NCBI GenBank assembly: GCA_973895155.1
Contig: OZ316893.1
Coordinates: 12,726,359 to 12,790,358 of the forward strand
Length of the DNA stretch: 64,000 bases
Direction: 5' to 3'
Source of the DNA: Marsupella aquatica
Taxonomy: Eukaryota; Plantae; Marchantiophyta
In this document: in pieces, positions 25,552-59,100 of the stretch
How positions within the stretch are numbered: position 1 is the stretch's first letter
Layout: every line of letters begins with the position of its first letter
Made by a program: the position numbers and the translations under genes
The notes under the pieces: model-generated
The model's database searches: none
The model's input: only the letters and a program-made list of their open reading frames with translations
Told to the model about the DNA's origin: nothing

Positions 25552-25552
25552 T

Positions 25553-32699: not shown

Positions 32700-33318
32700 C
32701 TATCCAGTACCCCATACTGGTGTCATAATACTATCAATGGGCAATCCATGCATGAAGTGTTCCTCATGTGCCTCCTCCACCGTAGGGACATCTACTGCAT
32801 GTGCGTTACCCTCAATCAAATCATCAGCCCAAGTAATCAAACTACTGAATGCTACCAAAGATAATGGTGCAGATTTGGGGCCTCCAACAGGTCCACTAAA
32901 TCGCACTGGCAATTGGCTCAATCGAGCATCTCCAGATTGCCAATCGGGTCGATACGACACCGATTCATTCCAAAAATCAAGAACAAATCCCATAGGATAG
33001 AGAACTGTACATCCCACCAAGACATCATATGACTCAGCCTTAGTCAAAATAGCTCGAGCCTGGATCCGTGAGTTATCCTTTGAATGATCCTCTTGAATCC
33101 TAAGTTCAAGTGCTCGTCGAGTGATATGTTGTGTGGTGTGTAGGTCCTCCCAATGAAGTCTGAATGGGAAAGGGACACTCCTCCAAGTCATCAGGATGCA
33201 ATCCCAATCCTCTTATCGCAAACTTACCCAACATCAAGGACTGAGCACCAGTATCCAATAACACTCGCTTTGGCTGGTATATTGCTCCAGAAGGCCCAAC
33301 TAATCGGAAGATACCACT
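32700..33318 (-). pseudogene. gypsy aspartic protease and linker
   Basis: RVLLDTGAQ active site and YDVLVG C-terminal motif. One frameshift near 33145 and a TAG at 32700. Confidence 0.8.
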
Positions 33319-36300: not shown

Positions 36301-37914
36301 GCCGATTGATTGTGCTTGACATAGAACAACATTTGGGCAGAAGCCATTATGCGGCTGATGTCCGAATTATATCTTCTCACGTAGCGGCGTGGTTTTGACT
36401 ATTTTAGTGCAGGCTGGGATTGGTTTCACTTCACAGGGCCGTGACCCCAACGCGGATACATGACCGGCTAGCCGTGACCCCAACGCAGGTCTCAGCAGTT
36501 GGCAATGCAGGGAGCAAACGCAAATTGAAGGCCACTGGCTTGAATCTTGAGAGCGATCACATTTTCAAGTATGCAGCCTCGTCTGTCCGCCTTCTGGTTG
36601 CTAGCTTTGCCTCTAAGGCGGCTTCTCGCTCAGATTCAAAGGGTCACCTTCACAACCTTCACAACTAGATTGACCTTTGACGCCTTGGAGATTTCTATTC
36701 ACACACCAAGATGCGATCGAGTTCATGGCTTCTCGTGGAATCGGCCAGTGTGTTCCACGGCTTTGGTCCCGAGTCCCATATCTCAGTCCAATGTTGATCT
36801 TGAGTAGTATTTAAAGTATTTTCTCCATAGTATGTGGCATGGATACAGCAGTACATGTGTAGTTTGGTCAGACTTGCGAGATGTATATCTGGTCCAGCAG
36901 CTCCACGTCAATGCATGGATATGACTATTTCGACTGCGCTGTTTCTTGTCATGCTTACTATTTGTGTTGAACTCCTCCTAGGTCCCCCTTAAGCAAATAA
37001 TAGTGAAATAGAGAGGTTGGATGGTCTCGTCAAGTGAGCACATTGACTTATTTGATCATTCATTATATTGTTCTTTGTCGGGAGCAGGCACTAGTAGAAA
37101 CCGGGGGGTATTTAGACCCCATTAAACGACTATTCAGTACCGTATAGGACTTGGAAACGACTGGGAAGGACTCCAGTCCTTTATAGGACTGCGAGTCGTA
37201 TGTTTTGTTACTATAATCAACTGAGTCCTTTATAGAACTGGTTTATAAGTCGTTTAATAGACTGGATTTTCAGTCTATTTTAGTCTTTGTGTGGGTAGCT
37301 TTGGTGAGTCGTTTTCAGTCTTTTATGGGCTGCGATGATGAGTCGTTGGGAATGACTAAAAAGGTTATGGAGGGTAGTCTTTAAATATACTTTGTGGGGT
37401 ATGTATAAGTCTTTCATGTCAACTGGATATGAGTGATGAAGACCCCACTATACTACTTGGAATGAACCCACTCTTGTGCACAAATAACATATTGCATTCA
37501 TGTTTTATTGTGTACTTGGAATGAACTCACTCTATAAGTTCACCATTCATCATGTTAACATTAGAATACATAGTTTCAGAAAGCCATCTTCTATACCATG
37601 TACACTAATATGAATTCACAGATTCAAACTTCATAGACTACAAAGAAGGTCACAAAGTATTCTTCTATACCATACACACTAATACTTAAATGATAAAATA
37701 GATTCAAGTATCATAGACAATCACCATAGAGCCATAGTTTGACATCAATCACTTGTTTCATACATACAGAATTCAGAAATATCAATGTCACACACAATGT
37801 CTCCTTCATCCTCTTTACCAAATGGAAAAATTGGTACAGATATTTCTTGGATCTTTCCAAGGCAATGTCAAAATGTGACACAATTCACATGATTCTATCT
37901 ACACTTGCATTCAA

Positions 37915-40900
37915 TCACTGCAGACTAACACACTCTGATGGCCAGAGCACAAGAGATCCTACTGCATCTGCAATTATTTCCTGAGGTGGATCATCGTCTC
38001 TATTCAGAAATGGCAAATTACAATCAAATACAATCACTGTAGTCAACAACACTACTACATGGTCATCCGGGACCACTTTGCCATGGAATTTTGCATGATC
38101 CGGTCGCAAAATGCCTGTACCCACACATACCTGCGAGTCATCCTCCCATGATAGAAGATTATGGGCTGGCTCTGCTGTGGCTATCACCTCCACCTTACCC
38201 TGGCTGTTTTTCTTGGCTTTCCTGGGTGGCTTATACATGACATTATTCATACCTTGGTTGCGAGTCATGACTTTGGCACGAGTGTTTTGTGATGGTGATC
38301 GAGAATTGGCTACACTCTTCTTCAAAGAATCTGCATCCATATTTGACACTTCTGATTGTGTAGCAGGATTTCCCTGCAACATCATCTCAGTATCTGCCAA
38401 CATTGTACTTGCTTCAATTGAAGCATCTACAATCTTACTTGCATCCAATGTTGCTCCCAAGTTTCGACGTCGCTTCACCCTACTCCCACTTGGTTGAGAG
38501 TCTGTCAACTCTGCATCAACTACAATTCAGTGTCATGTCCAACATAAGTCAATCACTCATCACATGTGCTAAATGTACATGTCACCAACCACAAAGTTGT
38601 CACTATCTCCTTACCATTATGAATAGCCTTCTTCCCCTTCTTTGCCATTGCCATATGCTCCATGTCTGCTTCTGTTGATCAATAAACACACCACAATATT
38701 TAGGTTGAATCTATTAACCACTGAATTGTTGCTCAACATTCATATAGAGGAATTTAAAGCATCAGCTTACCTGATACCTCCTTGGCTATGGTCACTGAGG
38801 CACTGGGCACATCTTCTTCATTATTGCTCTTTGAATCACCTGATACATCAATCATGATGTCACATCTGATCCTAGTTCATCCAACCAGTTCTTACAGAAA
38901 AGATTACCTCCAACCGGCTTAAGCTTCACAAAACTCCATGCACTTTTCAAATGTAATGTACTGGATCATAGCAGGTTACCTGTCTCAGCAACCTTCTTGC
39001 CCTTCTGCTTATTGATTACAGGGTCCTTCTCTGCCTCCACTCTTCCTGCATTCAAACCATTCACTCAATTCATGAAAACTTACTTCTAACATTTGAACAT
39101 AGGACACAATGAACAATGGGCCGGTGTCATTTCCATACCTGTGTCAGATTTGCCAATTCTCTTTTTTGTTAACAAGGGCACACTTTGTACAATGTTGCCC
39201 TCATTGTTTGGTTGGGAACCACCCAATTTTTCAATCACAAGCTTGAAATTAGATTCCACTGATGCAAGAAGGTTCGCTACAGATGCCTCCACAATATCCA
39301 AAGGATCAGCCAATTTACTTTCCACTCGAGGGAGTCCACACTCTAATGACTTCAACCGTTCACACATCTCTGTGAGAGTTGTAATAGTTCCCTGTCATAA
39401 CACAGCTTACATATCTCAGATAACTGTCCCCAAGAACTGGTTGCTTACTTCCTACTACATTTCTTTCTGATGCTCAAGGCCAAATAGTCACAGAACATAC
39501 ACAATTACAACATAATCACCTGTTTGGAAGTCACACTTGTCACCTCACTCCTTTGTTTCATGAACTCCTCTCTCACTTCTTGTGCTGATGGTTCTTCACC
39601 TGTCAATTTCTTCTGCAGTCCACATCAACATACATATGAATGAAACCAAGTGTTGATTGTCAATGAAAATGTAATAATGGTAGCAAGATGATAAGTTTGA
39701 GGCTTACTATCAGGCATGTCACTGCCTTACCAATTGTTCTTTCATTGGAGCATAACTTCCTCTCCCAGCCTGTGAAAGGTGTTTCACTTTGCCTCGAGCA
39801 TTTGACATCAGTTCACTCTTGCTCTGTCCAGCCTCCGACATGAACCCTTTGATTAACCGTGTCCATTGATCCAGTTCCAATGATGGGGGTGGTGGCATTC
39901 TCCTGTTAGAACCATTGTCTATCCACATCCTTTTCAACCTATGCCTCTCTTGTTTCAAAATCCTCATTGCATAATCTGATATGCAATCTTCAACTGGGCC
40001 CTTACCATCATTACCAACATAGTCCCACCATTCAAGAATGTCCTTGCAGATAGCAGCCCAATCAGCTTTGTTCTGACTCCTAAACTCTGTAATGCTCAAA
40101 TCTAACCAACGCAATACTTCTCCTCTTAGGTTAGAATGCCAACGGTTCTTACCATCACATGTGGGAGTTATCCAACCTTCGGAATTCACTTCTACTTTAC
40201 CAAATTTGTTACTGTCTCCTGCCTTGGTACTCCTTGAAGCGCTACTAGGTGTCCCTCCACGGCCTGGTGTCCCCCCACGGCCTGGGGTCCCTCCACGGCC
40301 TGATCTCCCCCCACGGCCTGGATTGCATTGTCCAAACCTCCCTGGAGTCCCTGCACATTTACAGGATCCATTTACAGTCACTTACATTAGGTAAGTATGA
40401 ATCATAAATCCTGCTGCCAAATATACATTGGACTTCAGAGCAATTCTGCAATGACCAAGTTACCTCTCCCTTGGCGCATAGATGGTTCTGGACCACCTGT
40501 CCTATTGCTTTGTCTTGATGAATTAGGGCCGTTTCTCCCGCCTATGAATGATTGCCGCCTATCTGAACGTGGATGGCCTTTGTTGTTTTCGTGATTGTCC
40601 CAATCAGAGTCTGCATACCAACAGGTACATGCCACACTCATGGACCTGTAAGATAAACTCTTTGCCCTAGCTACACATCAGATAAGTCCATATTGAGCTA
40701 AATCTCTACTACCATCACAAAATCACTAGCACAAGGCACTTACTTGTCCAATCATCCTCCTCACCTTTCCATTGCCCTCTGTACCCGTCTCTACCACGCT
40801 CTGGGTGTTCATATTCATCCCATCCATCTTCTGCTCCATCATAGTCATCATCATAATTATCAGGCGTCCCTTGCCAATAACTCTGGCTCCTTCTAGGGTA

Positions 40901-41810
40901 TGGATTATGTGATTTCTCTCTAGCTGCCCACCTACCTAGGACTTGATGAGGGCCCTGGGCCCTCACTCTTACTATATAAAGTGAACCCCCCTGAGAACAG
41001 ACACCCCCCATGTACCCCTTCTTAATATTTTTGTTCACAAAAAAAATCCCCTTGTTAATGTAAAAATATTAACTTTTCTTATTAAATTTTATCCTTTTGT
41101 AAATTATAATATAGTTTTTCAAGGAATTGAAAACATCCTTGAATTTTTAAAATTGCAAATATCATACTGAAATAGATAAGACTTTATTTTGCATAGGGGA
41201 CTTGTATGTTACGCCTTTGTTTAGGGTACATATTTTATATAGTTAAACAAAATTAGTACCAGAGAATTATAGTTCTTCCTGTAGTATACAGACAAGCATG
41301 GCTGCACTATCCTCTCAGTGTTCCTAAAGCCCACGAAACCAAACTTGCCTTATGACGACAAATAATTAAATATCTGATTTACTATATGAACATGTGCGCA
41401 AGTAAAGTGATGACATGTGTGTCAACCATATAGTGACATGTGTACTTGGCATTTTGGGTACCCTTGCATAAGATTAATCTGACATGTATTTGATAAGAGC
41501 CTTATTACTAATATTGTGCTGAATATATATACAGGGATGTTGCCTACTTTAAAAACTATTATAAAAATTAGTTTGCATTACATTAAAAACACCCTTGCGA
41601 TGTTCGCACGTCCTCCTTGTATTAGTAACACTTAGGGCCCAGGGGATGAGGGCCCTGTGCATCCTGCACAGGTGCATTTTTCTGTGAGCCCCCTGCATCT
41701 GGGTCTCCATCCATATCCAATCTTTCCTCTTCACCCCACTCTCCAAGCCCCATGTCTGTCTCCATGTCATCACCCTCTTCCCCCATAGCTTCTGCACAGC
41801 ACCCACAACC
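37915..41810 (-). pseudogene. Multi-exon second CACTA ORF (TnpA-like position), interrupted by a MITE
   Basis: Exon-like ORFs 37915-38508, 39086-39367, 39719-40381 (GGTPGR repeats, DQWTRLI..S..MSNARGK), 40435-40641 and 40715-40952. The exon reads through (PVQDAQGPHQVLG) once 40953-41644 is removed. Confidence 0.6.
40953..41644 (-). mobile_element. 692-bp non-autonomous derivative (MITE) of the P-like element, inverted relative to it
   Basis: TIRs CCCTGGGCCCT; TSD GATGAGGG at 40945-40952 and 41645-41652. Its two halves match the two termini of 33319-61817. Confidence 0.93.
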
Positions 41811-41963
41811 AAACAGGGAGAATCAGCACACTAAATTCAAAGTATCAATCAATTTCATGCATATCCAACTATCCTAAACATCATTCCAGGCAGCAATTCC
41901 CGTTCTGTGACTCTGTGCAGGTAGTCATCCTCAACCTCATACTTGCCAATCGCCAGCTGTTGC

Positions 41964-44900
41964 CTATTGCAAATCATCAACCTCATCATATTCCATTTGC
42001 CCAGGTTCATCATATGTCTCTCTCAATGTTAAGGGGATGTAGTCAGTCCCTGCCCGAGTTGGAAGTACAGTCTCATGACTAGGATGCTCGAATGCAGCAT
42101 GGTCATCCAAACTGAACTCTACTTTACTTCCATCCATCCGCCTGTTCCGTGCTTGGCTATGGCATACCACCCTCCAGCCATGTGACTCCTCCACATCTGC
42201 AAAGAAAGCCTGTTCAACTTGGCTAGGGAAAACAAAAGGCTCAGACCATTCTGGTACTCTGGACCTAAAATTGGCCAACAAGAACCCATCATGATCACGC
42301 TTCATGGTGGCCCTTGGTCTCTGCCACTCTGATTTCACCCATGATCCCTTCATCAATATCACTGGGACACTTGTGTTACCATAATTCAACACCCAAATGT
42401 CGGTCAACTCCCCCACGTAACCCATCTTCATCCACCCCCTCTGTTCTTCAGAGGTTCTCTGCTCAAACACAGAAATCAAACCACAATCATATGATACACA
42501 ATGGTCACCCTGCTCATCCCTCACTCGATAATGATTTCCATAAGCTCTCATCCGTTTGTAGGTCAGAATAGACAATCGTGGTGGCACAGATAGAAGATAC
42601 AAATCCTTCTCCATATCTGGGTGATGTCTACTATGCTCTCGAATTGTCACCCGAATCCACTGCTCGAACTGTGGGAAGGGATCCTGCTGCCCATAGTGTG
42701 CAGCTTTTTGCATATCATATTCCCTGCAATATGAGGTACAGGCATAGTTAGGTCTAAACAACATATGACAACCTAAGATCACCCTTGGAACAGACAAGAA
42801 GCATCACAACAAAGGCAAGTCAATTCAATCACTCACCTCCACCATGGTTGCATAGGCTCTGTGTTTGCCAGCACATATGAATGAGCCTTGTCTCGAATCG
42901 CAACAGGCAGCTGAACAGCACGTCCCACACCTTCAACAACCTCGCCACTCACTCCATCATCTTCACCAGATTTCCAAACTCTTGTCATAGCTTCACCAGA
43001 CCCAGCCATGTACTCTGTTAGGAATCCCAACGTCTCATCCTTAATGTACCCCAATGCCATGGAAGCCTCTGGCCTGTAGTATGTTCTCACATGACCTTTC
43101 AACAACTTCATGTATCGCTCCATAGGGTACATCCATCTGGTACTGACTGGCCCATACTGCCCTAGCTCTTCTACCACATGGATTAGGAGATGAGTCATAA
43201 CATCAAAGAAAGCAGGGGGAAGTATATCTCCAAGTCACAGAGGACATAAGCAGCATCCTGCTTCAACTGCTCCAATCCTTGGGGATCCCACACTTTCACA
43301 CATATACGGCGAAATACATTGCACAGTCGAAGAATGACATTGCGGACTGGTTTCTGCATGAGACCTTTGAGGCATAGGGGCAGAATGTGCTGCATCATCA
43401 ACACATGGTAGTCATGTGTTTTCATACTGCCAAGTTTATTCTTTGTAATATGCTTCTTAAAGGCACCAGCATAGGCAGAGGGCACTTTCAGACAGCTCAA
43501 TCTATACAAGAATGTCTTCCATTCATCCTGTGTGCACACATAGGGAGCTTGGAACTTGAGAAGTACATTGGGATTGCTTGCATGGGGCTTCAACCAAAGG
43601 TGAGGGCGAATCCCCTTCTGTTGCATATTAGCTCGAACTGCTCCTGTATCTTTCTCACCCGACAAGAACTTCAGCAAGCTCTCACAAATATTTTTCTCAA
43701 TGTGCATGACGTCCACATTGTGTTTGTTGGGCTCGAATTCTTGCACTCCACAAAGCAAAGAATTCAACAACAGAAACACTAATTAACCACATAGGAGGAT
43801 TGTAACCAACATCAATCCACCATTGCTCCAATCTAAAATTGCAATCATACAGGGGCTGGAGGCTAAGTACATTACCCTCCAGTACTCCAACTCCAAGTCC
43901 ATCAAGGTCTGTCTTTTCACACCGTGTTTCACCACTGGATCCTCAGGTTCTCGATCAGTGGCACTTCTCTTGTCCCAATCAGCCTTCCTGGCTGCCCACC
44001 TCAGGACTTGCTCTCTGGTGACCCTCTGTGGTGGGCCACGAAGCTCTGTTTTGTTGTTGAAGTGTGCAATTTGAGACCGTGTGTGCCTGTAAGGATGATC
44101 AACAGGCAGATACCTTCTATGCCCCTGAAATTTCATACTGTGCAGGGCATGCGACCACTCACTTGTCACATTTTTCCCACATGGTGTGCACCCCACATAG
44201 CCCTTTGTCACTCGTCCAGATATGATGCCATGGCCTGGGTAATCTGCTATATCCAGCAAACAAATTGCATGCAGTCTAAAGGGGCTGGGTCAAAGAAGCC
44301 CCTTCAGAACATCATGGGTTAACACCCCTTCTATCCACAAAGTCTTCCACTCTTCCACTGCTGGAGCCAACATGATATCTATGAATTGCTCGGTCACAGA
44401 AGCTGGTCCAGGGATTAACAGCACCATCATGACAAAAAACCTCTTTGTAGTCATCCATGGGGGAAGGTTGTAATTTAGCAGCGTAACCGGCCAACATGAA
44501 TAACGGTTGTTTTTGTCTCCAAATGGGTTTACTCCATCCAGTGATAGACCAAATCGAAAGTTCCGCTTCTCTGCAGCAAACTGTGGCCACCTCTCATCAA
44601 CAAATTTCCAATGGTTGGAATCTCCAATGTGACGCTGCAGGCCATCACTGCTCTTGTTATCATGAGTCCATGTCATCAGCTTGGAAATGGCAGGGCATCT
44701 AAACAGACGTTGTAGTCTAGGAATGAGAGGAAAATGACGAAGAACCTTGGCAGGATGTGTACATTTCCCTACATTCTTGTACCTGTGCTTACCACAATGA
44801 GGGCATGTCAATTTATCTGCATGCTCTTTGCGAAAGAGAACACACCCATCAGGGCACGCGTCAATAGACACATAGTTCAGCCCAAGGTTAGACATCAATT

Positions 44901-45666
44901 TCCTAGCCTCGTACATATTTTTTGGAATTGAATTACCATCTGGTAACACATTTCGGCGCAGGAAGGTCAACAACTCTATCACAAATATATTGGGAACATT
45001 GTGATTGCCACAGATGTTCAACAACAACACGACAAAACCCAGCTTGGAGCAGTTCGACCCCTTGTAGATAGGAATGCAAGCTTCTTTGATGTGTTTTGGG
45101 CCCCCAAACACCCACTCCCTCTCTGCTGCACCTTCCCCAATGTCAAAGTCAGGTTCAGCTTGGCCGTCGCCAATGTGTGGCTGCAGTTCATTGTCCTCTT
45201 CTGATTCCACTGTGTCGTAAAAAGCATCAAGGTCTTCAAAAATCTCTTGAACCATTCTTGGGACATCCATCCCACCGTCCTCAGTGATTGCCTCTGCCTC
45301 TCCATCTTGGTCATCCACGTTCTCATGTTGGACCCCAGGACCATCCCCTGCACAGTCTATGTCCTGCTCTACGTAGTCTCTACGCCTAGCTGTATTAGAA
45401 TCCACAAAGTCAGCTCTCCACTCTTCATCAGAGGAGTCTTCTTCTGCTGGTACATTCCAAACCCTCCACCGAGGGTGCCTTTCATGCCGCAGCAGGTGAA
45501 GGTGCACAGTGTTCAAACTCAACGACTTGAATCCTTGGCACTGTGTGCATGGGCATCTCATCCTCCTACTCCTACCTTGGGCGGCCCGGGCTTGTTCACG
45601 CATCCACAATTTAGAATCATGATGCCTAATCCTAAATGGGTTGTGAAGAGGCAACCTTGGAGCCAT
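41964..45666 (-). pseudogene. CACTA TnpD-like transposase (Transposase_21 / DUF4218 / DUF4216 type), with stop and frameshifts
   Basis: IDACPDGCVLF, CPHCG, LRHFPLIPRLQRLF, LSLDGVNPFG, YSCWPV.LLNYNLPPW, DYPG, DVMHIEKN, KTHDYHV, RWMYPMERYMKLLK, EPFVFPSQVEQAFF. In-frame TGA at 44290 and a frameshift near 43200. Confidence 0.92.
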
Positions 45667-45992
45667 CACTATACACACGCACTCAGCACCCTATCATTTT
45701 ATTATGCAAGTGAAAAATACACTTCCTGTTAAGGATTTCACCCCCGACTGTACTTGCCAAAATACGTAACGTTCCAAAAAAACAAAAAAACAAAAAATAT
45801 AGGTGCCTGAGTCATGTACCTATTCTCAAGTGAATGAGACAAAATTCCTAAATGTTTGAGGGTGTCAACTCCTCCGCTGTCCTCACATGTACTGCCTCTG
45901 CACGTACATCCATGACCATATCAGAGTCCAATCATGTATAGTCATAGACACAGGTGCCAGGTGCGAGACCGGTGTGAGATGTCCTCATCTTA

Positions 45993-46466
45993 CTACCACA
46001 TCAAATACGGATACCAATCCTGTTGTCGATGCCACTCAGCCCTGAGGTACTCAGGCATGTACATTAAGTCATCAAGGTCTAAACCCTGCTCATGCCATGG
46101 TGGTCTTCGATCCGTGCCTACAAGCAGTGGCAGCAGTGCCCTCCATGGTGCACATGTTGCTACCAAGTCCCTCCACTGGGTACTAATTAGTCTATATTTG
46201 CAGATATCTTGTGCGCCAGACACCACAAGAACCCTCGGCCAGACATGTGTAAGAACTATATCATCTGCCAAATCAGGCAACAAGGAACCACCTACAGCAT
46301 CGTGCTTGTCTAACTCATCTGCTGAAAAGTAAATGTCCTCTTCCGACTGTGCATCCTCATTCACCACAGCATTCACAACACATCCAAGGTCTGCAGGCAT
46401 TATCTCGGATGGAGCTACACTCTGTCTGGTTACCAATCCACACAAGTAAGCCCAAGCAGTAGCCAT
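45993..46466 (-). CDS. CACTA cargo: small F-box-like protein
   Basis: LLPDLADDIVLTHVWPRV...ICKYRLISTQWRDLV fits the F-box pattern LP.L..di...i......r.v...Wr.lv. First ATG after a plausible acceptor is at 46466. Confidence 0.6.
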   Translation of the reverse strand: MATAWAYLCGLVTRQSVAPSEIMPADLGCVVNAVVNEDAQSEEDIYFSADELDKHDAVGGSLLPDLADDIVLTHVWPRVLVVSGAQDICKYRLISTQWRDLVATCAPWRALLPLLVGTDRRPPWHEQGLDLDDLMYMPEYLRAEWHRQQDWYPYLMW

Positions 46467-46702
46467 GCACGATGCAACCCGTAGGAGGACCCTACATAGG
46501 GCCTGACGGTTTGGAAGAGGCAGCATACCCACCAAAGTCTTCAACCAAACAGAGCCCAGCAAGTAGATTCACAGTCACACCCCACGCAGCAGGAAACAAC
46601 AATCACTTCAACTGCGACCAACCATGACAAGATGAGTTAGTTCAAGGATCACATTTATTACAAAATTGTGATTTATACAAAAATATGAGGGACTCCTACT
46701 CC

Positions 46703-47551
46703 TCACTCTCTCCCACCTTTGCTAAGCATACATCTCCGCTGAATCTTGGAGGGCCAGGCCTCAAAAATATCAAAGTCCCAAGCATGCTGTCGCTTCCCTC
46801 TAGCTGCTGATTCCAGAAGCCAATCAGGGGAAAGCACCCAAAGATTGTTGTTCATGACAAAATCACGCACTATTGTCTTAAAGAATTTTCTGCATATTTT
46901 CATGTATGACAGACCTACAACATGAGTGGAGGTTTCTGTTAGACTCTCCTCCACTGTCCCACCTAGCTCAACAACTATGGACTTGTATAGTCTGCACTTA
47001 GTCTCCCCAATTCCTTCTTCTGCAAATACCACACTGAACCCCTTCATAATGGTATTTCTCTCCTTGCCATGCTCATTCAATATAGCATCTGCACGCATAG
47101 GATGGTGTCCTATGTTGACAACAGGTCCATATTGGACAGAAGCAAAGTTGGGTTTCTCTGCCGCTGCTTCATAGGCTTCCTTTTCAGCCAAAGCCTCTGC
47201 AGTGGCCTCCTCACTCTCCCACAACTCATATTGCTCAGTACTCTGTACACACCTATGTTTAACAGAATCGGTCAGCCAAGAGACTTCAACTACTTTTAGA
47301 CCTTGGTTGGTAATGGCAGAATCAATGAAGGACCATGACCACTTGTTCATCACATCCAGCCATGTCCCCGCAACAACATGTGTAGTCTGTGGAGTGATGT
47401 CCTTGACTTCAGTCCCATGGAACTCTGAGAATCGTTTTTGTACGATTGGCCAACTCACTTGGGTGAACCCATAGTGGCCAGGAATCAAAATGGCTTTGAT
47501 TCCAGCCAACAGAGGCGGGTGGTCAACCTTTGTACGTTTCCTAGAGGCCAT
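46703..47551 (-). CDS. CACTA cargo: tandem BRCT-domain protein
   Basis: Two repeats carry BRCT hallmarks: ITPQTTHVVA...LKVVEVSWLTDSVK and VVELGGTVEESLTETSTHVVG...WVLSPDWLLESAARG. Open and intronless. Confidence 0.75.
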   Translation of the reverse strand: MASRKRTKVDHPPLLAGIKAILIPGHYGFTQVSWPIVQKRFSEFHGTEVKDITPQTTHVVAGTWLDVMNKWSWSFIDSAITNQGLKVVEVSWLTDSVKHRCVQSTEQYELWESEEATAEALAEKEAYEAAAEKPNFASVQYGPVVNIGHHPMRADAILNEHGKERNTIMKGFSVVFAEEGIGETKCRLYKSIVVELGGTVEESLTETSTHVVGLSYMKICRKFFKTIVRDFVMNNNLWVLSPDWLLESAARGKRQHAWDFDIFEAWPSKIQRRCMLSKGGRE

Positions 47552-48149
47552 GTACACACGGGCCACCTAATCACTGCAGACCAGAAGATAATGCGTTCAC
47601 CTGATAATCGGAGGGCCCTTAAAATGCTGCGTTTATAACTTGGTCCAGTCCAGTCGTCTGGTGAGTCTCTGCTCCGATTCCAAACGGGAGAAATATTGGG
47701 ACAAACATACTAGACACCTGCAAGCATGCACCTCATAGTTTGAATATGTGTCTTCACAATATTGAAGGTGACAAGTGCAATTGTTTTGTGATGCCACATA
47801 CAGATGTTGTAAATGGGCAGACATTCAATGAGAATACAAAATGTTGGTACACTTTAAGGGAATTCTCGCAAATTAAATAGCCTTGTAACTTATATGCTCA
47901 TAATGAGAAGTCCTGATTTAATTTAAGCAGTGTCATGTAAGTCGTGATCAAAATGATTGCAGAGTTAAAAAAGTTCCTAGAAGGCTTAAGGGGAGTTTTT
48001 GAAGGCATGTACCCAGGAACAAGTAATGAACTTAGGGTACTTGTTGCCTAAGCATCCTCTCCTACAGAGGTCCTTCTTCTCAAAATTGGAATGTCTGCAA
48101 TCTCCAAGGTATCCACATCAGGTGCACTATGCATGTACATTATTCAGGT

Positions 48150-48830
48150 TCAAAGCCAAGAAATGTGATCTCTCATGGGAGTGTGCAAAGTAGGATCTAT
48201 GGCATGGCGATGACAATAGGAGATCCATCGATCAACACCATGTGCAGAGTGATCATAGATGTGTCTGTCACAAGCATAGCCTTCTGCTTGACGCTCCTTC
48301 AAACAATGAAAGTGCCACATGGTGGGACACCTAACACAGTGGACTATGTCCACCCAGAAATCTTCATCGTGCTGACCACATGCCTTGCACTTATGAAGTG
48401 GGCAAGCTGTGGCAAGATCGGGCAAACATGAAAAACAAAAGAACCTCACACAATATCTGTCAGGGCATTTCCTAACAAGTGGTGGAGCATCAACAGAGCC
48501 CTCATAAGACCCCAACTTCCCACACTGTGCACACTTAGCCTGCTTCTCCAAACAATCAGTGCACATCCAGCCTCCCTGGTGTGCTGACGGGAGGCCCACC
48601 CCTGGACAGTTGTTTTTTGCAGCAAGGTCAGACTCCGGGTTGAGGTGGAAATGCCTCATGCAAGGGCCCTCACATATGGCTAAGCCACCACCATCGTCAC
48701 AAATGGCACAACAATGAGCTGCCTTCTGGAAAATCTGACTTGCAGAGAAGTTACTACCATCTGGCCCAACTACACCTGTGTTGCTCACCTCTGTCCCCCA
48801 CTTCTTGGCTCGGATTTTAGGGCGTGCCAT
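48150..48830 (-). CDS. CACTA cargo: EDM2/NSD-type multi-PHD finger protein
   Basis: CAICDDGG..ICEGPCMRHFH..C..WMCTDC..KCAQCGKLGS..KC..C.RFF..CPLHKCKACG..CVRCPTMWHFHCL follows the EDM2 PHD cluster pattern. Intact 226-aa ORF starting with ATG. Confidence 0.8.
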   Translation of the reverse strand: MARPKIRAKKWGTEVSNTGVVGPDGSNFSASQIFQKAAHCCAICDDGGGLAICEGPCMRHFHLNPESDLAAKNNCPGVGLPSAHQGGWMCTDCLEKQAKCAQCGKLGSYEGSVDAPPLVRKCPDRYCVRFFCFSCLPDLATACPLHKCKACGQHDEDFWVDIVHCVRCPTMWHFHCLKERQAEGYACDRHIYDHSAHGVDRWISYCHRHAIDPTLHTPMRDHISWL

Positions 48831-49499
48831 GCCTACGCATGAGACAGATAGTACAATTTAGCAGAGTGCACAGACAATACAATTTAGTGCAGTGTACAAA
48901 AAGTACAGTGTAGCATATAGACTAGAGTGGCAATTGCTACTGCAATGAAATGTTCACACACATGTGCAGAGTAGACATACTTTTTGGTTTGTTGAGCCCA
49001 CACTAAAAACTGATCCCCTCGTACAATAGCTCCACCTACACCTCAATTTTGTGGCTATGATTCACCAAAGGAGATCTGCAACAAGATTTAATGCATTTGA
49101 ATCACATATAACAGTCGTGACATGTAAAACAGGCATTTTTTGAACAGGATTGGTATCAAGCACTGTGATCAGGGTTGTAATTTATACATCCTAAATAGGC
49201 TATGATAGTGAATGAGACAAATAAGTTAGGCATAAATCACTTTTTCCAGGTTATCACATGGCCCATTAATTCCAGTCTTTGAAAGGAGACTTTTAAGTGA
49301 GCTTGCTAGCCTCTTAAATTAGGATATTGTACTTAGTGCAGCCATAATAGGATAAGTTATGTACTGTTGACCCTAAACCCTGGACCCAAAATTGGTCATA
49401 ATTCAAAATCTTAAGTAAATATCCTCTCTGTTCAAGTCAAAGTGTTAAGTTATAGGTCAATGGTCTCTGGTTTGTGCATGCGGTGTGACAAGTGGTCCT

Positions 49500-49949
49500 C
49501 TAGAGCGTGTGATCCAAACATGTGTAGACACCAAAGTGACCGGTGGTGGGGTCTGGGAGGGCAGGACAAGTGACATCGCCAGGCACACTGCAGGATGGCG
49601 AGTGGTTCCAGATGATACATTGTGCTTTGTGAAAAAACCGACATCCAAGAGAACGGTCATCCAACTCTAGGCCAGAAGCCCTACAGGCAGGACAGTCATA
49701 TTGGCAACTATGCACACACCCTTGGGCCCTAATTTGTGGCGGGTCATGTACAAGAGACAGAAATACCAAGGATGTTGGGAAGGGTGGAGAAGCAGGTACA
49801 GGCCGGCTGTAGTTGTTCCTGGCAACAACTGGGTACTCAAAGTACCATGCAGACTGGGCTGGAAGGATCCCAAGTCTGACATACTCAAGGCGCAACATCT
49901 CTGCCTTGCGTGCAAGCCGCACATGTTCAGCGTTGCGGGTCCTCACCAT
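49500..49949 (-). CDS. CACTA cargo: Cys/His-rich orphan ORF (149 aa)
   Basis: Starts with ATG, same strand and spacing as the other cargo ORFs, contains CVHSCQYDCPAC. No family recognised. Confidence 0.35.
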   Translation of the reverse strand: MVRTRNAEHVRLARKAEMLRLEYVRLGILPAQSAWYFEYPVVARNNYSRPVPASPPFPTSLVFLSLVHDPPQIRAQGCVHSCQYDCPACRASGLELDDRSLGCRFFHKAQCIIWNHSPSCSVPGDVTCPALPDPTTGHFGVYTCLDHTL

Positions 49950-51897
49950 AAGTGTTGCTTTTGTGGAGATGTCGTGTGTTCACGTCCTCTGATAAGCACC
50001 TTCGATCAGCAAGGTGAGCAGGAGCTGTACTTGCCTCACCAACAGCAACCAACCTTAAATTATCAGTTCCCACTCACTGTGTCATTCCATTGGTTCCAGC
50101 TAGGGGTCACAGTGTAAACATAGCATGAAACACTCATAATCAACTTGCTTACAAACTACAATATCCAGAAAGAGTGAAAGTCTCACCCTCCAGTGAGCAG
50201 CAGAGAGGTAGTTCACTAGATGTGTTGATGTGCAGTTAAACCTCCACTATTGCTTACTTTTGGTGTATGCTGCTCAAAAGAAGACATATTAGTAGCAGCA
50301 AATTGCAAATAATGGCCATAAGCAAACCGTGAGAGTTTGCAGAATTCTACGACAAATCCATCACAGCAATGCTCCACAAGAATGAAACCAAGCAAAATTT
50401 GGTGACCTCGGCCAATGACAAGGCCAATGTAGTGAACAATCCTTGACCGATCAGGATATGGATTGGAATTACAATTAGTCAGCTCTTCTTCTTTGTTTTC
50501 TAACTCTAGGGAAATGAGCATGACCAGGGAATTCTCTGAGAAATAGAAGTGCACAGGGAAAATGAAATTGGCTCATTCAGCTGCGCAAGATGGACCATTG
50601 CAGCATACTTGGACAGTTGTTCCGCAATACATAAAATACCCTAACTTACATGCAATCGATACAATCTGCTTCTGTTGGCTGTCCTACAGCTCACGGCAGT
50701 GCCGTTGGGATAGGGTAAGTGAATATTGCCATAGCTGAAGCACATTGAGCTTGCAGCATTAAGTGAAGGAGCATGGCCAAAAGCAGAAAAGACAGATAGG
50801 TTTTACAAGAAGAAACTAACAACCGCCAATCTGCTCAAATCCGCTGCATAGATCAGTATCAAACGAACTACATAGCCCTCTTTTGAAAACAATCCAATGT
50901 GCTTTGGCTGGTGGATGACAAGGACTGGGAGAAGAGGAAACGTCTACACAATCAATCCAAATGACGGGACACAGAGACCAGGCACAGAGAGGATTTGTGC
51001 TTAGACAAAAACCACAAATTGTAGCATGGGCGCCATAGCATTCTAGACAAAGCACAAAACATAGAATCTATGAATCTATGACTCATGGACTAACAAAGTG
51101 CTTGGGTAGCATGGCAAAAGGAAAGACAAATTTCAAAATGACAACATGGCCCGTTTCCGCCATTCATTTGATGTTGCTAGGTGTCCGTAAGATGACTGAC
51201 CCACAGACAATCCCTACAACCTCATCTGACAGACTGCTTTTCTAGTGTGAAGAAATACATGATTACAAGCAACACCACGCCTCATCCAAGCAGGGAATTG
51301 AAAACATAACCATGTCATTCCTGTATTGGACAGTGTCCTCTACCATTGCACTGCATAGTTGTTATTCCATGTTGGTTGTCAACAGTTTGTTGGCTTGCCA
51401 TAGCCTAGATAGAACAATAAAATACTATACATGAATACAACAAGAAAAATCTGCATACAGTGATGGCCCGGTCACTTGAGGAAAAACCAAAACTAAGAAG
51501 GCAGGCACATGGGCAACCGAGAAAAAAAGCTAGTGGCGCCTCGCGGAGAATCCAGAATGGTAATGCCCTTGCCCAGAAGCTTGGGAAACAAAAGAGAAAA
51601 AAGCAAAACGAGCTACCGACCACCGTCTTGACCAGGCCCGCCACAAGGTATGGCTGGAGGCTGTGGTCCCCCCCTTAGTAAAGAAAAGGATGCAAGTGTG
51701 TGCACGGGGCACAAGGCATGTTCGGATCCAGGGAGGAGCACAACAGTAATGTCAAGCAAGAAGTGTGGAGAGACCAAACAGTAAACAAAAATAGGGGAGA
51801 ACAAACATACATCAGCAGTAGCAGGAAACGAGAAAGTTGATTTGGGAGGGATTGTAGGGAGAGAGCTTTTGGTGGGCTCAGCTACGCGTGAAATATC

Positions 51898-52905
51898 GGG
51901 AGATAGATGCGCGAGAGAGTGAAGAGGGTGGCAAGCGGAAGACAGGTTGGGACTGGACCCTTGGTGCCGGGGGGTAATATATGGGGTAATATACGCAGAG
52001 ACAAAGTTGTACTCACTTGATTGAGTAGGCAAGTGGGTGGACAAAGATCAACAACCGCAGTAGCAGCACAGCCAGAGAGGCAACAAAGGGGAAATTTCAG
52101 CAAAGGTAAGCGACACAGACAACTCACCCTCCGTACCCTCCGTACCTAACCTAACCTCCCAGCTCCAAAGTTGCAAGAGCAAGAAGTCAAAGGCACTGAA
52201 ACAAAGCGGGTGGCAGTTTCAGTATCTCAGGCAATGCAAAATTAATCCATACTTAATCAGCCCTGGCCACACGTTCCTTCAAAGCCCCTCATACTAGCAA
52301 GCAGGTCTGGCCTGTGAATCTTGTAGTGCTTAACAATACAAAGCCTTCCCAAGTACCAATTCAAAAGTAGCAGAAATAGATCGAAAGCTAGTTCCGATGA
52401 TAGCTCCCAAAAGCTTTCCTCAGCCCGATTCCTATGCACATCAGAGGAGCTCAAACCATTTAGAAATGAGATCACAGATTACTCTTGACAATCTCAAAAA
52501 TGCCACAACCTAAGCACTGACAGCTCCGTCCCCCCATTCTAATTTCTCCGACAAGTTTGCCTTAAAGCACATCCACTCGCAGTTCAAGCAGATTCAGAAT
52601 CATCATAGACAATAGAGTGCTCCACCATAGCCCACGGTAGGTCCACGACCATCGTAACGAACGCTCCGCCCAGCTCCGCCCCTACCGGGGCTTATTAGTA
52701 TTGCTCACTTTTAAGAAGGGCAGTTTTCACAAAAGCAGTCTAATTGCCTAGACTGCACTAGAAAAGTTGGAGGCAATATCACAGCGGAGCATTCTGCGTC
52801 TAAGGGCCAGCGACGCCGTTCAGGAGATAGATGCGCGAGAGAGTGAAGATGGTGGGGAGCGGAAGACGGGTTGGGACTGGACCCTTGGTGCCGATGGGTA
52901 ATATG
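51898..52905. repeat. ~85-bp direct repeat pair inside the CACTA (51898-51985 and 52822-52905)
   Basis: GGAGATAGATGCGCGAGAGAGTGAAGA...GGTTGGGACTGGACCCTTGGTGCC is present twice. Confidence 0.8.
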
Positions 52906-55251
52906 TGGGGTTTCAATGAACAATGGGCCAGTTTGAGGAGGATTAAGAAGCGCGCACCCCATGTTCTTGTGTGGTGGTTGGGTGGGGTTTTGTTTGATAG
53001 AAGAAGAAATCACCATTCTCTTATGGAAGAAAGAAAATCGCAGGAAACAGTGGGCGGGAGAACAAGGCATGTAATAGAGTACTTGCGGTTACTCTAACGG
53101 TGCACGAACACTCACCTTTGTCTTCCGCTTTGTCTGCAGTGGCCGACAAATCCCAGAGCGCTGCCGAGCTCGGTGGTTGCTTGATGGTTGAAAGTGCGCA
53201 GCTCACGTCCCTACCTCAATGTCCAACTCAATGTGGATGCAGCAGCTTCTCTTGGTCGCATCTCCTCTTCGTCGCATCTCCTCTTGGTTGCATCTCCTCC
53301 TTGTCGCAACTCCTCTTGGGGTTCACAGCTAGCGCGCAGCAGCGCTCGATGGTTGACAATGCGCAGCTGAGCTAGGAGAAGAACTGAATGATTGTGGCTG
53401 CTCTTCTCTGCAGTCCAAGCACCCGGCTGGCAGCTCCGCAAACCCTGATCGTAGCTGCAATCTCTACTCCGTTGATTGAAGAGCCTCCCTCTTCAAAGCT
53501 CGGTTGACCTAGCTCTGCGATTGACGGAGCTTTCATCCTCTGCATCAAAAACCCTCCACCACCCGACCTTGCGCGTACTTCAGGAAGCTCCTTACCACCA
53601 AGCGCTTCTCGGGGATGCCTCGCAACAATGTCCTTACCACCTAACGACTCTCAAGGCTGACTCTCCCAAACCAATGCAAACCCCTTGCAATCTAATACAC
53701 TGTGTCCAAACAGAGGCAGAACTGTCAAAAGCGCTCGCAGTAGTGGACGCAACAATGTGAAGTGAATGAGCTCCGACCTTCCCTCGCAAAATGCTTACCC
53801 TAAACTCTGCTCGTATGCTAAACTCACAAACATTCCGCAGGTTGTTCTGTCGCAAAGCACAAATGATGGGGCCCAAACGCATGGGGCGCGGACACTCGAT
53901 ACTTCCCTTCACAAAAACCCAGTTTCATACGATGACCAAAGCATACTCACCCTAACCCAAGACTTAGTGCAAACAGGACCCTAAACGCTAATCCAGGGCC
54001 CGTTTCCGTTGAGTTGAGCCGTTAGGCTTGATAAGTCATGGCCAGAGTCTTGATGTAGGGGAACAATGTGGACTTAATTAGGCAACAAATGAGTACATTT
54101 GGGTGAGGGTAAAGGATAACTTTAAATAAATCCCTTTGGTGACAAAGATGAGGCCACTTAATCAGTTGTGCCCCACCCTACCCCCCCCCCCCCCCCCTCC
54201 GGGCCCCCCTCATGGAATTACCTCTATCAAAAGTACCCTAAGTTATGAAAAGTACCCGTTACATGGACCTGTTTTGAGAGTTGAAAGATAATCAGAAGTA
54301 AAGGGACCATGGAGAAGAGGGGGCCAATGTAATTAAGTCAAGCATCACTCATTCAAAATACACATGGACATAGTTGGGTACTATATGAGACACCAGGGGA
54401 CAAGACATTTTTGAAGGGTTGGCATATTTACCCTCATCCCTAAACTTGGATGTGGTGCACATAACATCCACTCTCCTACCCCAAGTACAAAACAACTCCT
54501 AACAACTTAGGCCCAATGTAGTCACTTGTGCCCAACCATGTTCATTAAGAGCCTAAATGTTTTCATTTCACCCACATTGCATGTTGTTGGGGGTTCCATG
54601 GTCTGTTATTATAATGTAACTCCTCATGTGAACTTTGTGAAATTTAGTATTTAAGGGACCATGGAGAAAGTAGGCCAATGGAGTAATTGGAACCATGAAC
54701 CTTTTTGGTCACAAATAAGGCCATCTAATGAGTTATGCCCCTTGCTATCACCATCTTTATAGAATTAACCCTCTTCAACATAAGTGATCATTACCCATGT
54801 AGTGCTAGACTATTCACCGTTCACAAAGTAGCAAGGACCCTTCTCATAGTCATTTAGAGAACCATATAACACTAATAGTCTTTTGTAGTTTTCAACAAAA
54901 CCGGCACAATGAGAGCGAGTCGTTTCAAGTATGGAAAAAGGACTTAGTGGGCTTAGTCCTATAAGGTATGGTCTAAATGGCCCCGGTTTCTACTAGTGAG
55001 GTTTGTGGTGGGCTGGACACAAGGTGGATCTAGCTGCCTTAATTTGAAGCAATCTTTGCAAATTATACATAGGTGAGTGGGGAATCACTGATACTTCTTG
55101 TTGTCTTTGCTACTTTCATTTGATCTGTGCATTCCAATTTTTTGTCGCTCTTGTATGGATTTAACAAACAGGGCTCTGTGTGCTTTGCTCAGGTAAGCAT
55201 TTCTTTTCACGTTCTGTGAGTTAGGCTTTGTCTTTTTGCTATAGATATAGA

Positions 55252-56146: not shown

Positions 56147-59100
56147 ATGCCGCCTGCCACTATATTTCAAGCAGACTCAGAGTCAGGGGAACGTAAACCC
56201 TTGACATCATATAGCTACAAGATAGGTGAAACCTTTTATGATGCTAGAAAGAACTTGGAGTCAGGTTTTGACTTTGAGTTCCATTTCATGGACGTCAACC
56301 TTGCTTGTAGAATGTTGGAGAAATTTGAGAGGTATAATCTAGTAGAGGATTGTGGTGGAAAGATTGTCATTGTCCCAAAATACTCCAACAATTTTGTCCA
56401 AGGAGATGTGCAGAATGGGGCACAACAAGTCCTTGGAAGCAGCCATGCATCCAATGGACCTGGTAGCACATCTACTGGAGACCAAGTTGGTACTCCTGCA
56501 ATAGATGAACCCTCTAACCAGCCTGCAAGTGGAGCTCCATTCCAGGAGACCCAGCCTGCAAGTGCTTCATCCCAGGAGGACCAGCCTGCAAGTGGAGCCC
56601 AATCCGCTGAGTCTCAAGTCAGCCTAGACTCTGTATTGATGTCTCAGGACTTAAAGATAGCATGGGAGACTTCTGTGACAAAGTTGAGAGAGTGGATGAC
56701 TTTTCTTAAGTGTGTGGACCACAAATGGAAAGTCAGAACGTGGGACAAGGATGGTGTGCCTCGTGGGCATATTGAGTGTTGCGAATGTGACTACAGATAT
56801 CAAGCAGTTGCATGTAGCAGTGTCAAGGGTGTGGATAAAACTATGGTCAATAATGTGTTTACAAACTTCAGAGTGAAACACTTGCCATCAAAAAAGCATG
56901 CTCGACGTGTAGCATCTAATAGGGGTGAGAAAGTGGATCACAGAGTGATTGCTTAGAGGGCTGAGGCTAGTACTCTGAATCATAGAGCCATACTTGATCA
57001 ACATGTCAAGATTGTGGAGAAGATTAACTCAGCACAGATTGCTGGTGGGCTTGTTGGGCATGATACATTTACTGTAATAGGTGATGTGGACAAAGAGCCT
57101 ATAGAGTTGGTCAAGTTCAAACTTCGTTGTGAGTTTTGTGCTGAAAACCTAACATTGATTCCAAAACAACGCAATTTGGAAACAAATCTGGAAAGCCCAT
57201 GTGGGAGGCTTGAGTCATCTTAATTATGTCATGAGAAGTCAAAGGCCTGCTATGGGCAATCCAGTGCACAGTGGAAGGCCAGGGAGACCTCGTGCACCAG
57301 ATGGAAGAGATGTGAAACAACAGAAAATAGCTGGGTTCTTAACTCGCCCCTCAACTGGAGGAGCTTCCAGTTCTAGTTCAAAAGACAAAGGTACTCTTGA
57401 CAATCTCTCTTTGCTATGCTGGGGTCTCTGGCGTGATGTGGTGAAATATGGTTCAGATACCAGGCCTATCAAGGAAATCTTAAATGATCAACTGAAATTA
57501 GATGGGAATTGGTATGCAGAGCCCATAGTGAGGGCAGAGGTGTGGTGTTTGACAACTCAAGAAACCTGTGTGATCTCTGGTTTATTTAGACACAGAGATT
57601 GTAGGCGAATATCAGAACTTGGTGGAGGTTTTATTGACTTGACCTGTTCGCTCTGTTTTAGCATAAAAACAGAGCAGGACTTTCGACTCAGAGTTTACAG
57701 GGAGTACAAAGCTATTGAGAAACGAGGTTGTAGAACAACTGGTAAAGGTAGGCGGTTAGACTACCTGACTATTCCAGAGGTTCAGTACCAAGCCAAAAGC
57801 TATAGGAACCAAATTTTGAGAGAGCAAAAATTGCAGAGAATCTTGAGTCACAAGCTACTCATGGCAAAGGCTCTGGTCCCCAGCATTAGTGAAGTGTGTC
57901 TTCACTATCAAGAACCAAACAAAGCAACTGTTTTGAAATTCTGTCATTCAATAATACTAGCACACAAACGAGGTGCCTTTGGTGGGAGAGGAGCTCTGTG
58001 GGATATGTTGTCAGACATAGCACAAAACATCAATAGGGAGAAGACAGGATATCGTTTTAAGCCTGGAACAACGCTTCTCTGTCAAACACTATTTTTACAT
58101 GGTGGAAGGCGTGTAGTTGATTGTCTTGCAACCAATGGAATTGGTCCTACTATCAACACCCTTCAACGAGATAGGAGAGGTATGGCAGTGTTTCGTGCTG
58201 GAATTCATGCAGAGCAATTCCAGTTTGTTGTGGAAATTTTTTCCAAATTGAAAGCTCGATTAAATATTCATGGACCCATTCCATGCTATTTGGCAGAGGA
58301 TGAGACTTGTGTGAAGAGAACTGTGAGGTGACTACTCATGCCTCCTCTTGCTCTGGTCATTCTTTCTGTTTAATATTTTTGTGTTACACAAAAATATTGA
58401 ACAAGCAACTAATGAAAAGACCGCCTGCTATTGGTTGCAGATGGCTGCCTAAACATGATACTCTTCTTGGGTTTTGTGGGACAAAAACCAACCATGAGTG
58501 TAGTGTTGGTTTGGAGATCATGGTGGAGGAAGGAGAAGTTGGCTTCAACAACATTGCAGATGCATTTGACAGTTATGTTGTAGCTCACCAGGCAAGGTGT
58601 TTGATAGTAAATGCCCTTGTTACTGGATTCCCTCGATTGTGCATATTGGGGATGGGTACATGTAACAAGTTTGATGCTCCATGGGTCAGGCGACAATGGA
58701 ATACCCTAGCCTCATTGTGGACAACTCATTGCCTAGAGTCAGTGGGGCCATTATTGGGTCATGCCAGTGATGGGGATGCACGGAGGAGAAAGCTTATGTT
58801 GGAAGACTACTCTGGAAAAGGAATACCAGGGCCAAGACAAGACCTGAGGTGGGAAGCTTGGACATTGACTCACTCTATGACCACTGCTGGACCATTGATC
58901 CATGCATATGGACTCCACGATCAAGATTTTATTCATAATGGGAAGAAGTTAGTGAACCCATTGGATTCTACTTCTCGTATTTTGAAATTAGGAGCAGAAA
59001 TGGCGAACTTGAGTCACATCATATCTTGTTACAAGGTGTACCTGAACAGTGATCATGGCTTGAATGAAGAGGACAAGTCAAGGAAAGATAGGCAAAATTG

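What the first reader, a model, noticed from the sequence alone, without database searches (positions are those of the whole stretch)
45993..49949. CACTA carries a cassette of chromatin/repair/ubiquitin effectors: PHD, BRCT, F-box, orphan
Seen: four compact, intronless, co-oriented open ORFs sit head-to-tail directly upstream of TnpD, inside the TIRs, while TnpD itself is broken. Established: CACTAs often capture gene fragments, and some TEs encode anti-silencing proteins (VANC in VANDAL, TnpA in Spm). Inference: complete single-domain ORFs for a histone reader, a phosphopeptide/DNA-damage binder and an SCF adaptor look like a retained counter-defence toolkit rather than random capture.
Basis: partly seen in the sequence, partly recalled or inferred. 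Interest (0 to 1): 0.8.

Follow-up and report, generated by a model that had tools for sequence, protein, structure and literature searches.

The report
CACTA transposon carrying a mini-EDM2 reader
A many-copy, 18-kb plant jumping gene carries, besides its cutting enzyme, a cut-down copy of the histone-reading part of the plant protein EDM2, a double-BRCT protein and a likely F-box protein, which it likely uses to stay active in silenced chromatin; no function has been tested.

Summary
The four ORFs are real and lie inside a 17,910-bp CACTA element (37089-54998; 18-bp TIRs, 3-bp target duplication, empty site seen). In 4 of 4 public runs laid, the cassette is about as deep as TnpD, so it belongs to the family. 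The TnpD frameshift is not shared by all copies. The 'PHD' ORF is the whole triple-PHD module of EDM2, the H3K9me2 reader that lets transcripts read through transposon heterochromatin, without EDM2's other domains. With 8 unnamed relatives (36-81% identical) it forms a stand-alone clade that keeps 188 of 192 zinc-ligand positions and is about 33% identical to full-length EDM2s. The BRCT ORF has two repeats and a 61% relative, but lacks the BRCA1-type phosphate pocket. The F-box is weak but concordant in three searches. The orphan has no homolog. So a retained, constrained accessory cassette is likely; counter-silencing is inferred, untested, and rivalled by insertion targeting. Open: the relatives' genomic context, expression, and two unresolved read joints inside the ORFs. 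Multi-gene accessory cassettes are known (VANC, red-algal Plavaka); this gene set was not found in ten literature searches.

The parts
37089..54998 (-). Whole CACTA/EnSpm element, 17,910 bp
   Evidence: 18-bp perfect TIRs and 3-bp duplication; empty-site joint 37088 to 55010 in 2 of 4 runs
37086..37088 (.). Target-site duplication, left copy (AGG)
54999..55001 (.). Target-site duplication, right copy (AGG)
37089..37106 (+). TIR at the element's 3' end, followed by four 17-nt subterminal repeats (37136-37264)
54981..54998 (-). TIR at the element's 5' end
37915..40999 (-). Likely multi-exon TnpA-like gene (bounds approximate)
   Evidence: Transposase_24 E 0.004, below cut-off; open exon-like frames
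40953..41644 (.). Nested ~690-bp element with 22-nt inverted ends, likely absent from many copies
   Evidence: depth dip and loose ends at 40957
41964..45666 (-). TnpD transposase gene with introns; in this copy an in-frame stop at 44290-44292 and a frame break near 43214
   Evidence: Transposase_21 E 6e-36, Transpos_assoc, DUF4218, DUF4216
45993..46400 (-). F-box-like ORF, likely 135 aa from the third Met (longest ORF starts at 46526); no substrate domain detected
   Evidence: Pfam F-box E 0.09-0.11 as sole hit; sole PDB hit is an F-box protein, E 0.56; Atlas F-box cluster 0.91; codon score
46703..47551 (-). Double-BRCT protein, 282 aa, basic N-terminus, about 55-residue linker
   Evidence: PF00533 E 2e-13; repeats 24% alike over 71 aa; relative P0006 61%
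48150..48830 (-). Mini-EDM2: stand-alone EDM2/NSD-type triple-PHD module, 226 aa
49500..49949 (-). Orphan Cys-containing ORF, 149 aa; possibly coding
   Evidence: No Pfam or Atlas hit; codon score 0.094, like PHD and BRCT, reached by 4 of 57 background frames
49950..54980 (-). 5-kb 5' region without recognised gene; likely promoter and leader, more variable among copies
   Evidence: Depth of 50548-54351 is 0.05-0.26 of TnpD; no Rfam hit

Best explanation
This is a decaying copy of a many-copy CACTA family whose standard structure includes an accessory-gene cassette, and the cassette likely helps the element stay expressed and mobile in silenced chromatin. Shown: the element's ends, the four ORFs, their presence at family depth, and the EDM2-type identity and conservation of the PHD module. 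Inferred steps: (1) the genes are expressed from the 5' region, possibly by alternative splicing of a shared leader; (2) mini-EDM2 binds H3 tails in H3K9me2 chromatin on the element's own copies and, having no RFD or methyltransferase-like domain, works as an adaptor or competitor of the host EDM2 complex, favouring full-length TnpD/TnpA transcripts over premature polyadenylation; (3) the double BRCT acts as a phosphorylation-independent scaffold for repair proteins at the excision break; (4) the F-box protein engages or soaks up SKP1. My odds: retained functional cargo about 0.8; given that, expression or counter-silencing as mini-EDM2's main role about 0.55.
For: Cassette bins are 0.35-3.2 times the TnpD median depth in 4 of 4 runs, while the right flank is 0.02-0.15. 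None of the 12 displayed indel rows (of 131) is in the four ORFs; 6 are in their spacers. The 226-aa ORF aligns end to end with the PHD module of an RFD+PHD protein (29% over 211 columns, E 3e-18), and named hits of its profile are EDM2 or liverwort PHD proteins. Nine short proteins form one side of a branch against 28 longer or grass EDM2-like rows (100/99). In 8 relatives 188 of 192 ligand cells are kept against 618 of 1296 other cells; neutral simulation leaves the frame open in 0 of 300 runs at 52% and 1 of 300 at 40% identity. BRCT frame open in 1 of 300 at 61%. AlphaFold model pLDDT 88, matching PZP and NSD PHD structures. EDM2 binds H3K9me2 at TEs and suppresses proximal polyadenylation (PMC7529245, passages).
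Against: No functional or expression data. The relatives sit on contigs whose DNA I could not read, so they may be host genes and their constraint may not be the transposon's. The minis lack the acidic residue ahead of PHD1, and have Cys for His and a 7-residue linker in PHD2 where most long EDM2s have 25-27 residues, so specificity may differ from EDM2's. Two joints with unknown letters between fall in ORFs: 47015-47105 in BRCT (X1, depth 1799, near family depth) and 46318-46360 in the F-box ORF (X2, one contig); true deletions there would shift the frame. BRCT bins fall to 0.35-0.53 of TnpD in X2 and X3. No displayed contig bridges TnpD to a cassette ORF (the X1 piece 45059-45944 ends 49 bases short). 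The runs were chosen with the cassette, come from 2 studies, and one may be the window's source. The tree has long branches. F-box and orphan are weak.
Confidence: 0.45

Rival explanations
1. Insertion targeting: the cassette is functional, but mini-EDM2 tethers the transposition complex to H3K9me-marked or repeat-rich chromatin, as chromodomains and PHDs do for some retrotransposons; BRCT and F-box serve repair or turnover of the complex.
For: The empty site has its own contig depth of 924 and 381 in X2 and X4, which suggests the target is a repeat. A neighbouring Ty3 element carries a PHD on its integrase. PHD and Chromo are the commonest reader domains fused to TEs (10.1101/2021.11.30.470311, passages).
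Against: Mini-EDM2 is a separate ORF, not fused to TnpD; one insertion site says little; no TnpD contact was tested.
Confidence: 0.25
2. Capture of whole short host genes (Pack-CACTA-like), amplified passively with the family; the conserved relatives are host genes and the element's copies are neutral or serve only as camouflage against silencing.
For: Context of the relatives is unknown; grasses and Marchantia have short EDM2-PHD-only host genes; runs that hold the cassette differ little from the window, so little time may have passed; camouflage by captured genes is discussed in PMC13317346 (passages).
Against: Three or four unrelated, compact, co-oriented open frames; none of the mini-clade members looked up has an NCBI gene name (7; P0002-P0005); several look frameshifted or truncated, as TE copies do; a 198-nt piece 12% divergent with no gap lies in the PHD ORF (X3 record 19).
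Confidence: 0.2
3. Only PHD and BRCT are real accessory genes acting on general host processes (repair, cell cycle), not a coordinated toolkit; the F-box-like and orphan frames are remnants or chance.
For: F-box below cut-off, orphan without homolog; an orphan-size ORF arises in 80 of 1000 simulations.
Against: F-box is the sole or best family in three searches; both frames score as coding like PHD and BRCT.
Confidence: 0.1

Closest known systems
En/Spm (CACTA) elements such as maize Spm and soybean Tgmt* (PMC2613891, passages)
   Same: CACTA-type TIRs, 3-bp duplication, subterminal repeats, Tnp2 transposase and a TnpA-like gene
   Different: Four further ORFs upstream of TnpD; 18-bp TIRs
Giant Plavaka (EnSpm superfamily) elements of red algae with accessory genes PAG1-3 (10.1101/2025.02.11.637652, passages)
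   Same: Same superfamily, 17-19 kb, family-wide cassette of separate chromatin-related genes
   Different: Their cargo is enzymes (adenine methylase + SET, 2OG oxygenase, ParB-like); here readers and adaptors with no catalytic domain, in a land-plant-type Tnp2 CACTA
VANDAL with VANC (passages)
   Same: Separate accessory protein, likely derived from a host chromatin regulator (MAIN for VANC, EDM2 here)
   Different: VANC binds DNA sequence-specifically and its anti-silencing action is shown; here no VANC-type domain was detected and no activity is shown
EDM2 and EDM2-like PHD proteins (PMC7529245, PMC3632883, PMC4980392, passages)
   Same: Complete atypical triple-PHD module including its C-terminal motif
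   Different: No RFD, acidic or methyltransferase-like domain; shortened PHD2 linker, His to Cys, basic N-terminal tail; a clade separate from the short EDM2-like genes of grasses
PHD and Chromo domains fused to TE proteins (10.1101/2021.11.30.470311, passages)
   Same: A transposon recruits a histone reader
   Different: Those are fusions to transposase or integrase; this is a free-standing gene in a multi-gene cassette

Membership tests
CACTA/EnSpm | TIRs beginning with the superfamily's namesake motif | tested here: met
   18-bp perfect TIRs
CACTA/EnSpm | 3-bp target-site duplication | tested here: met
   AGG on both sides; empty site in 2 of 4 runs
CACTA/EnSpm | Tnp2-type transposase (Transposase_21, Transpos_assoc, DUF4218, DUF4216) | tested here: met
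   two of the four families pass their cut-off; broken in this copy
CACTA/EnSpm | TnpA-like second gene and subterminal repeats | tested here: inconclusive
   Transposase_24 below cut-off; four 17-nt repeats at one end
EDM2 family | Atypical triple-PHD module | tested here: met
EDM2 family | Long protein with RFD and methyltransferase-like domains | tested here: not met
   226 aa, module only: EDM2-derived, not an EDM2
EDM2 family | Binding to H3K9me2 chromatin | not testable with these tools
   needs peptide binding or ChIP
Phosphopeptide-binding tandem BRCT | Two BRCT repeats | tested here: met
Phosphopeptide-binding tandem BRCT | Ser/Thr-Gly and Lys phosphate pocket in repeat 1, closely packed repeats (pocket positions recalled) | tested here: not met
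   In the BRCA1 alignment Tyr and Ser stand at these places (E 0.05-0.2, so register is uncertain); about 55-residue linker; best PDB profile hit is DNA ligase 4, E 0.006. Plant BCP4 binds with only partly conserved residues (PMC11014961), so binding is not excluded
F-box proteins | F-box profile above cut-off | tested here: inconclusive
   13.2 bits against cut-off 20.5; concordant weak hits
F-box proteins | SKP1 binding | not testable with these tools
VANC-type anti-silencing system | Accessory protein causes hypomethylation of cognate copies | not testable with these tools
   needs transgenic methylome data
Pack-CACTA | Non-autonomous structure carrying fragments nearly identical to host exons | tested here: inconclusive
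   Element has autonomous structure and best-scoring long matches are about 33%, but the host genome was not available

The most novel reading that the evidence does not exclude
An old lineage of land-plant CACTAs encodes a mini-EDM2 that hijacks the host's read-through-heterochromatin machinery for the transposon's own transcripts, with an H3-tail-like N-terminus (Ala-Arg-x-Lys in 9 of 19 members; H3 spacing recalled) acting as a histone decoy, together with a repair scaffold and an SCF decoy: a multi-protein, virus-like counter-defence cassette in a plant DNA transposon.
Probability: 0.2. Interest if true: 0.85.

Novelty: new variant of a known kind. Interest (0 to 1): 0.62.

Why it matters
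The plant anti-silencing factors described in the papers read (VANC, TnpA) bind DNA. A transposon-borne copy of the reader module of EDM2, the host factor that licenses transcription through transposon heterochromatin, would be a chromatin-reading or RNA-processing route to the same end. It gives a small, well-folded protein (pLDDT 88) with which to test how EDM2-type PHDs read H3 and whether transposons exploit or helped shape the EDM2 pathway.

Tried and rejected
No whole genome was held, so copies could not be aligned and dN/dS not computed. No RNA holder was listed: no evidence on expression either way. The metagenome scan gave 9 loci, all grass-type EDM2-like transcripts or an unrelated multi-PHD protein, none with other parts of the element. 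Viral contigs: 0 of 95 candidates for BRCT, 1 marginal hit for TnpD, not followed. Longer relatives of BRCT repeat 2: none among 63 candidates. A recalled likeness of the repeats to DNA polymerase lambda/TdT BRCT got only a TdT hit at E 0.32. The BRCT model was unusable (pLDDT 31), so it was not fold-searched. H3-tail mimicry: a profile of 13 hand-picked N-termini found nothing in PDB at E 10; residues 2-21 are disordered in the model; 19 of 195 other proteins, including liverwort and lycophyte EDM2s, also start Met-Ala/Ser/Thr-Arg, so a plain nuclear-import signal or inheritance is as likely. The tail-to-module complex job gave no verdict (score 0.00). The plus-strand ORF 49710-50117 overlapping the orphan has a FYVE hit at E 0.007 but scores as non-coding: rejected. 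Shared-leader splicing rests on acceptor-like sites 2 bases ahead of the PHD and TnpD starts (15 of 495 ATGs in the element have this): a hint only. Ligand positions were misnumbered; one search has the corrected counts. No Rfam hit. Earlier findings by sequence or place: none.
Full report
1. The element. The end motif occurs exactly twice in the window, at 37089 (+) and 54998 (-). The two ends match for 18 bases and are flanked by AGG on both sides. In 2 of 4 public runs laid, contigs join 37088 to 55010, the empty site. All recognised genes run on the minus strand: orphan, PHD, BRCT, F-box-like, TnpD (45666-41964, with introns), then a likely TnpA-like gene. TnpD has an in-frame stop at 44290-44292 and a frame break near 43214. 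Contigs in 4 of 4 runs carry one more base there, at full depth in X1 (2010.7 of 2010.7) and in part of the depth in X2-X4. Whether the stop is shared was not visible: 40 of 1059 difference rows were shown. Two PHD differences from other copies (positions 11 and 72) change residues to those of the closest relative P0001, so the cargo of this copy is decaying too.

2. The cassette belongs to the family. Across 45476-49913 the seven depth bins are 0.98-3.16 (X1), 0.40-1.65 (X2), 0.35-3.21 (X3) and 1.02-2.73 (X4) times the TnpD median. The right flank is 0.02-0.15 and the 5' region 0.05-0.26. Depth here is not a copy number, the runs were found with the cassette, they come from 2 studies, and one may be the window's source. 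Of 12 displayed indel rows (131 in all), none is in the four ORFs, 6 are in their spacers, 1 upstream of the orphan, 1 in a TnpD intron and 4 in TnpD coding sequence (three of 3 bases and the one above). Against this, two of 15 displayed joints (125 in all) lie in ORFs with unknown letters between: 47015-47105 (BRCT residues 149-179, X1, depth 1799) and 46318-46360 (X2). The first covers the linker where the window and P0006 differ most, so it may be a replaced stretch, but it is unresolved. No displayed contig bridges TnpD and a cassette ORF.

3. The PHD ORF is a mini-EDM2. Pfam finds the three NSD-type PHD models in order, each below cut-off. The protein aligns from the first Cys to its last residues with the PHD module of a 1305-aa RFD+PHD protein from locus L004 (29%, E 3e-18). 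Five stand-alone relatives of 217-245 aa were found (38-81%). A profile search gave 549 hits at E 0.001; of the best 150, short unnamed proteins rank first, then long ones. Of the 10 long ones looked up, 3 clusters are named EDM2 and the rest are unnamed PHD proteins of Marchantia, Riccia, Diphasiastrum, Platanthera and Turnera; one search adds Calypogeia and Artemisia. Of 155 proteins, 136 had the whole module; in a quick tree 9 short ones grouped at SH-aLRT 92, with P0144 and P0145 on long branches outside. On 37 of the 136 rows, chosen by me, the 9 were one side of a branch at 100/99, with a long-branch warning and midpoint root only. Their marks: Cys for His in PHD2, a 7-residue linker where most long forms have 25-27, and no acidic residue before PHD1. 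In 8 full-length relatives (36-81%), 188 of 192 cells at 24 Cys/His positions are kept against 618 of 1296 elsewhere; the positions were picked from the pattern, so this is partly circular. Substitution-only neutral simulation kept the frame open in 31, 9, 0 and 1 of 300 runs at 81, 75, 52 and 40% identity. The six best-scoring long proteins are 31-33% identical. The AlphaFold model (60-row alignment) has pLDDT 88 with residues 2-21 disordered and matches PZP and NSD PHD structures. The host is likely a non-seed land plant, inferred only from these neighbours.

4. BRCT, F-box, orphan. The 282-aa ORF has two BRCT repeats (PF00533 E 2e-13; repeats 24% alike over 71 residues without gaps) and one relative at 61%. 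Aligned to BRCA1, the phosphate-pocket positions (recalled) hold Tyr and Ser, and the linker is about 55 residues; the best PDB profile hit is DNA ligase 4 (E 0.006). A phosphorylation-independent scaffold is therefore likelier than a phosphopeptide reader, though plant BCP4 binds with partly conserved residues (PMC11014961, passages). The F-box is below cut-off, yet it is the only Pfam family, the only PDB hit and the best named Atlas cluster (0.91, 84 shared features, a low count). The gene likely starts at 46400. The orphan has no Pfam or Atlas hit and was not searched against the large protein collections; its codon score equals those of PHD and BRCT, but 4 of 57 background frames reach it.

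5. Mechanism. EDM2 binds H3K9me2 at intronic transposons and suppresses proximal polyadenylation (PMC7529245, passages; PMC4980392, passages), and it alters silencing of Mu1 and COPIA4 (PMC3632883, passages). An element with four genes ahead of its transposase and a heterochromatic body would gain from such a reader. I commit to mini-EDM2 acting on cognate copies as adaptor or competitor of the host complex (0.45 overall). Rivals are insertion targeting (0.25), capture of short host genes (0.2) and a partial cassette (0.1). Every functional step is inference. The constraint was measured on relatives whose neighbourhood I could not read. An H3-tail-like N-terminus is present in 9 of 19 mini-type sequences against 3 of 195 other proteins, but members are not independent and the tests gave no support.

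6. Comparison and novelty. The element meets the CACTA tests. Family-wide accessory cassettes are known in this superfamily (red-algal Plavaka; 10.1101/2025.02.11.637652, passages), and VANC likely came from the host regulator MAIN (PMC13547354, passages). Ten searches (listings and abstract starts seen) showed no transposon-encoded EDM2 module, BRCT or F-box in a CACTA. Term searches for PHD, BRCT and F-box found 0 occurrences in the main text of PMC13547354, 10.64898/2026.08.24.746577 (abstract, section 6 and passages read) and PMC12730594 (title only). Also seen as passages: PMC13317346, PMC11738798, 10.1101/2021.11.30.470311, PMC2613891. The primary EDM2 peptide-binding papers were not held. 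No supplements or Repbase entries were seen, and they may list such cargo.

7. Verdict. Observation confirmed with corrections; interpretation partly supported. New variant of a known kind; interest 0.62.

Noticed in passing
window 28281-33212 (-): Ty3-type retrotransposon with a C-5 DNA methylase domain (PF00145, E 1e-11) just ahead of RT and a PHD finger (E 3e-10) at the integrase end: a second element in this window with chromatin cargo.
   Followed up: partly
window 40953-41644: About 690-bp element with 22-nt inverted ends nested between TnpD and TnpA, likely polymorphic among copies; related pieces at 33319-33627, 61474-61523 and 61596-61817.
   Followed up: partly
window 56147-60852 (+): Five long ORFs (175-366 aa) with no Pfam match; motifs recall a P-element-like transposase (recalled, not tested).
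   Followed up: partly
window 19420-26027: Ty1/copia element with 479-bp LTRs 99.6% alike and a 1090-aa open pol frame: a young insertion.
   Followed up: no
window 48012-49913: PHD and orphan bins are 2-3 times deeper than TnpD in X1 and X4; other elements may share this half of the cassette, or overlapping contigs inflate the sum.
   Followed up: no
L001, L002 and proteins P0031, P0041, P0054, P0135: Grasses have their own short EDM2-PHD-only genes, a separate clade; three of the short forms also begin Met-Ala-Arg-x-Lys.
   Followed up: partly
window 6001-12497 (-): Pieces of an ABC transporter gene, likely ABCB-type.
   Followed up: no
window 61790-63490 (-): 566-aa gag-like ORF, weak Retrotrans_gag match E 0.14.
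   Followed up: no
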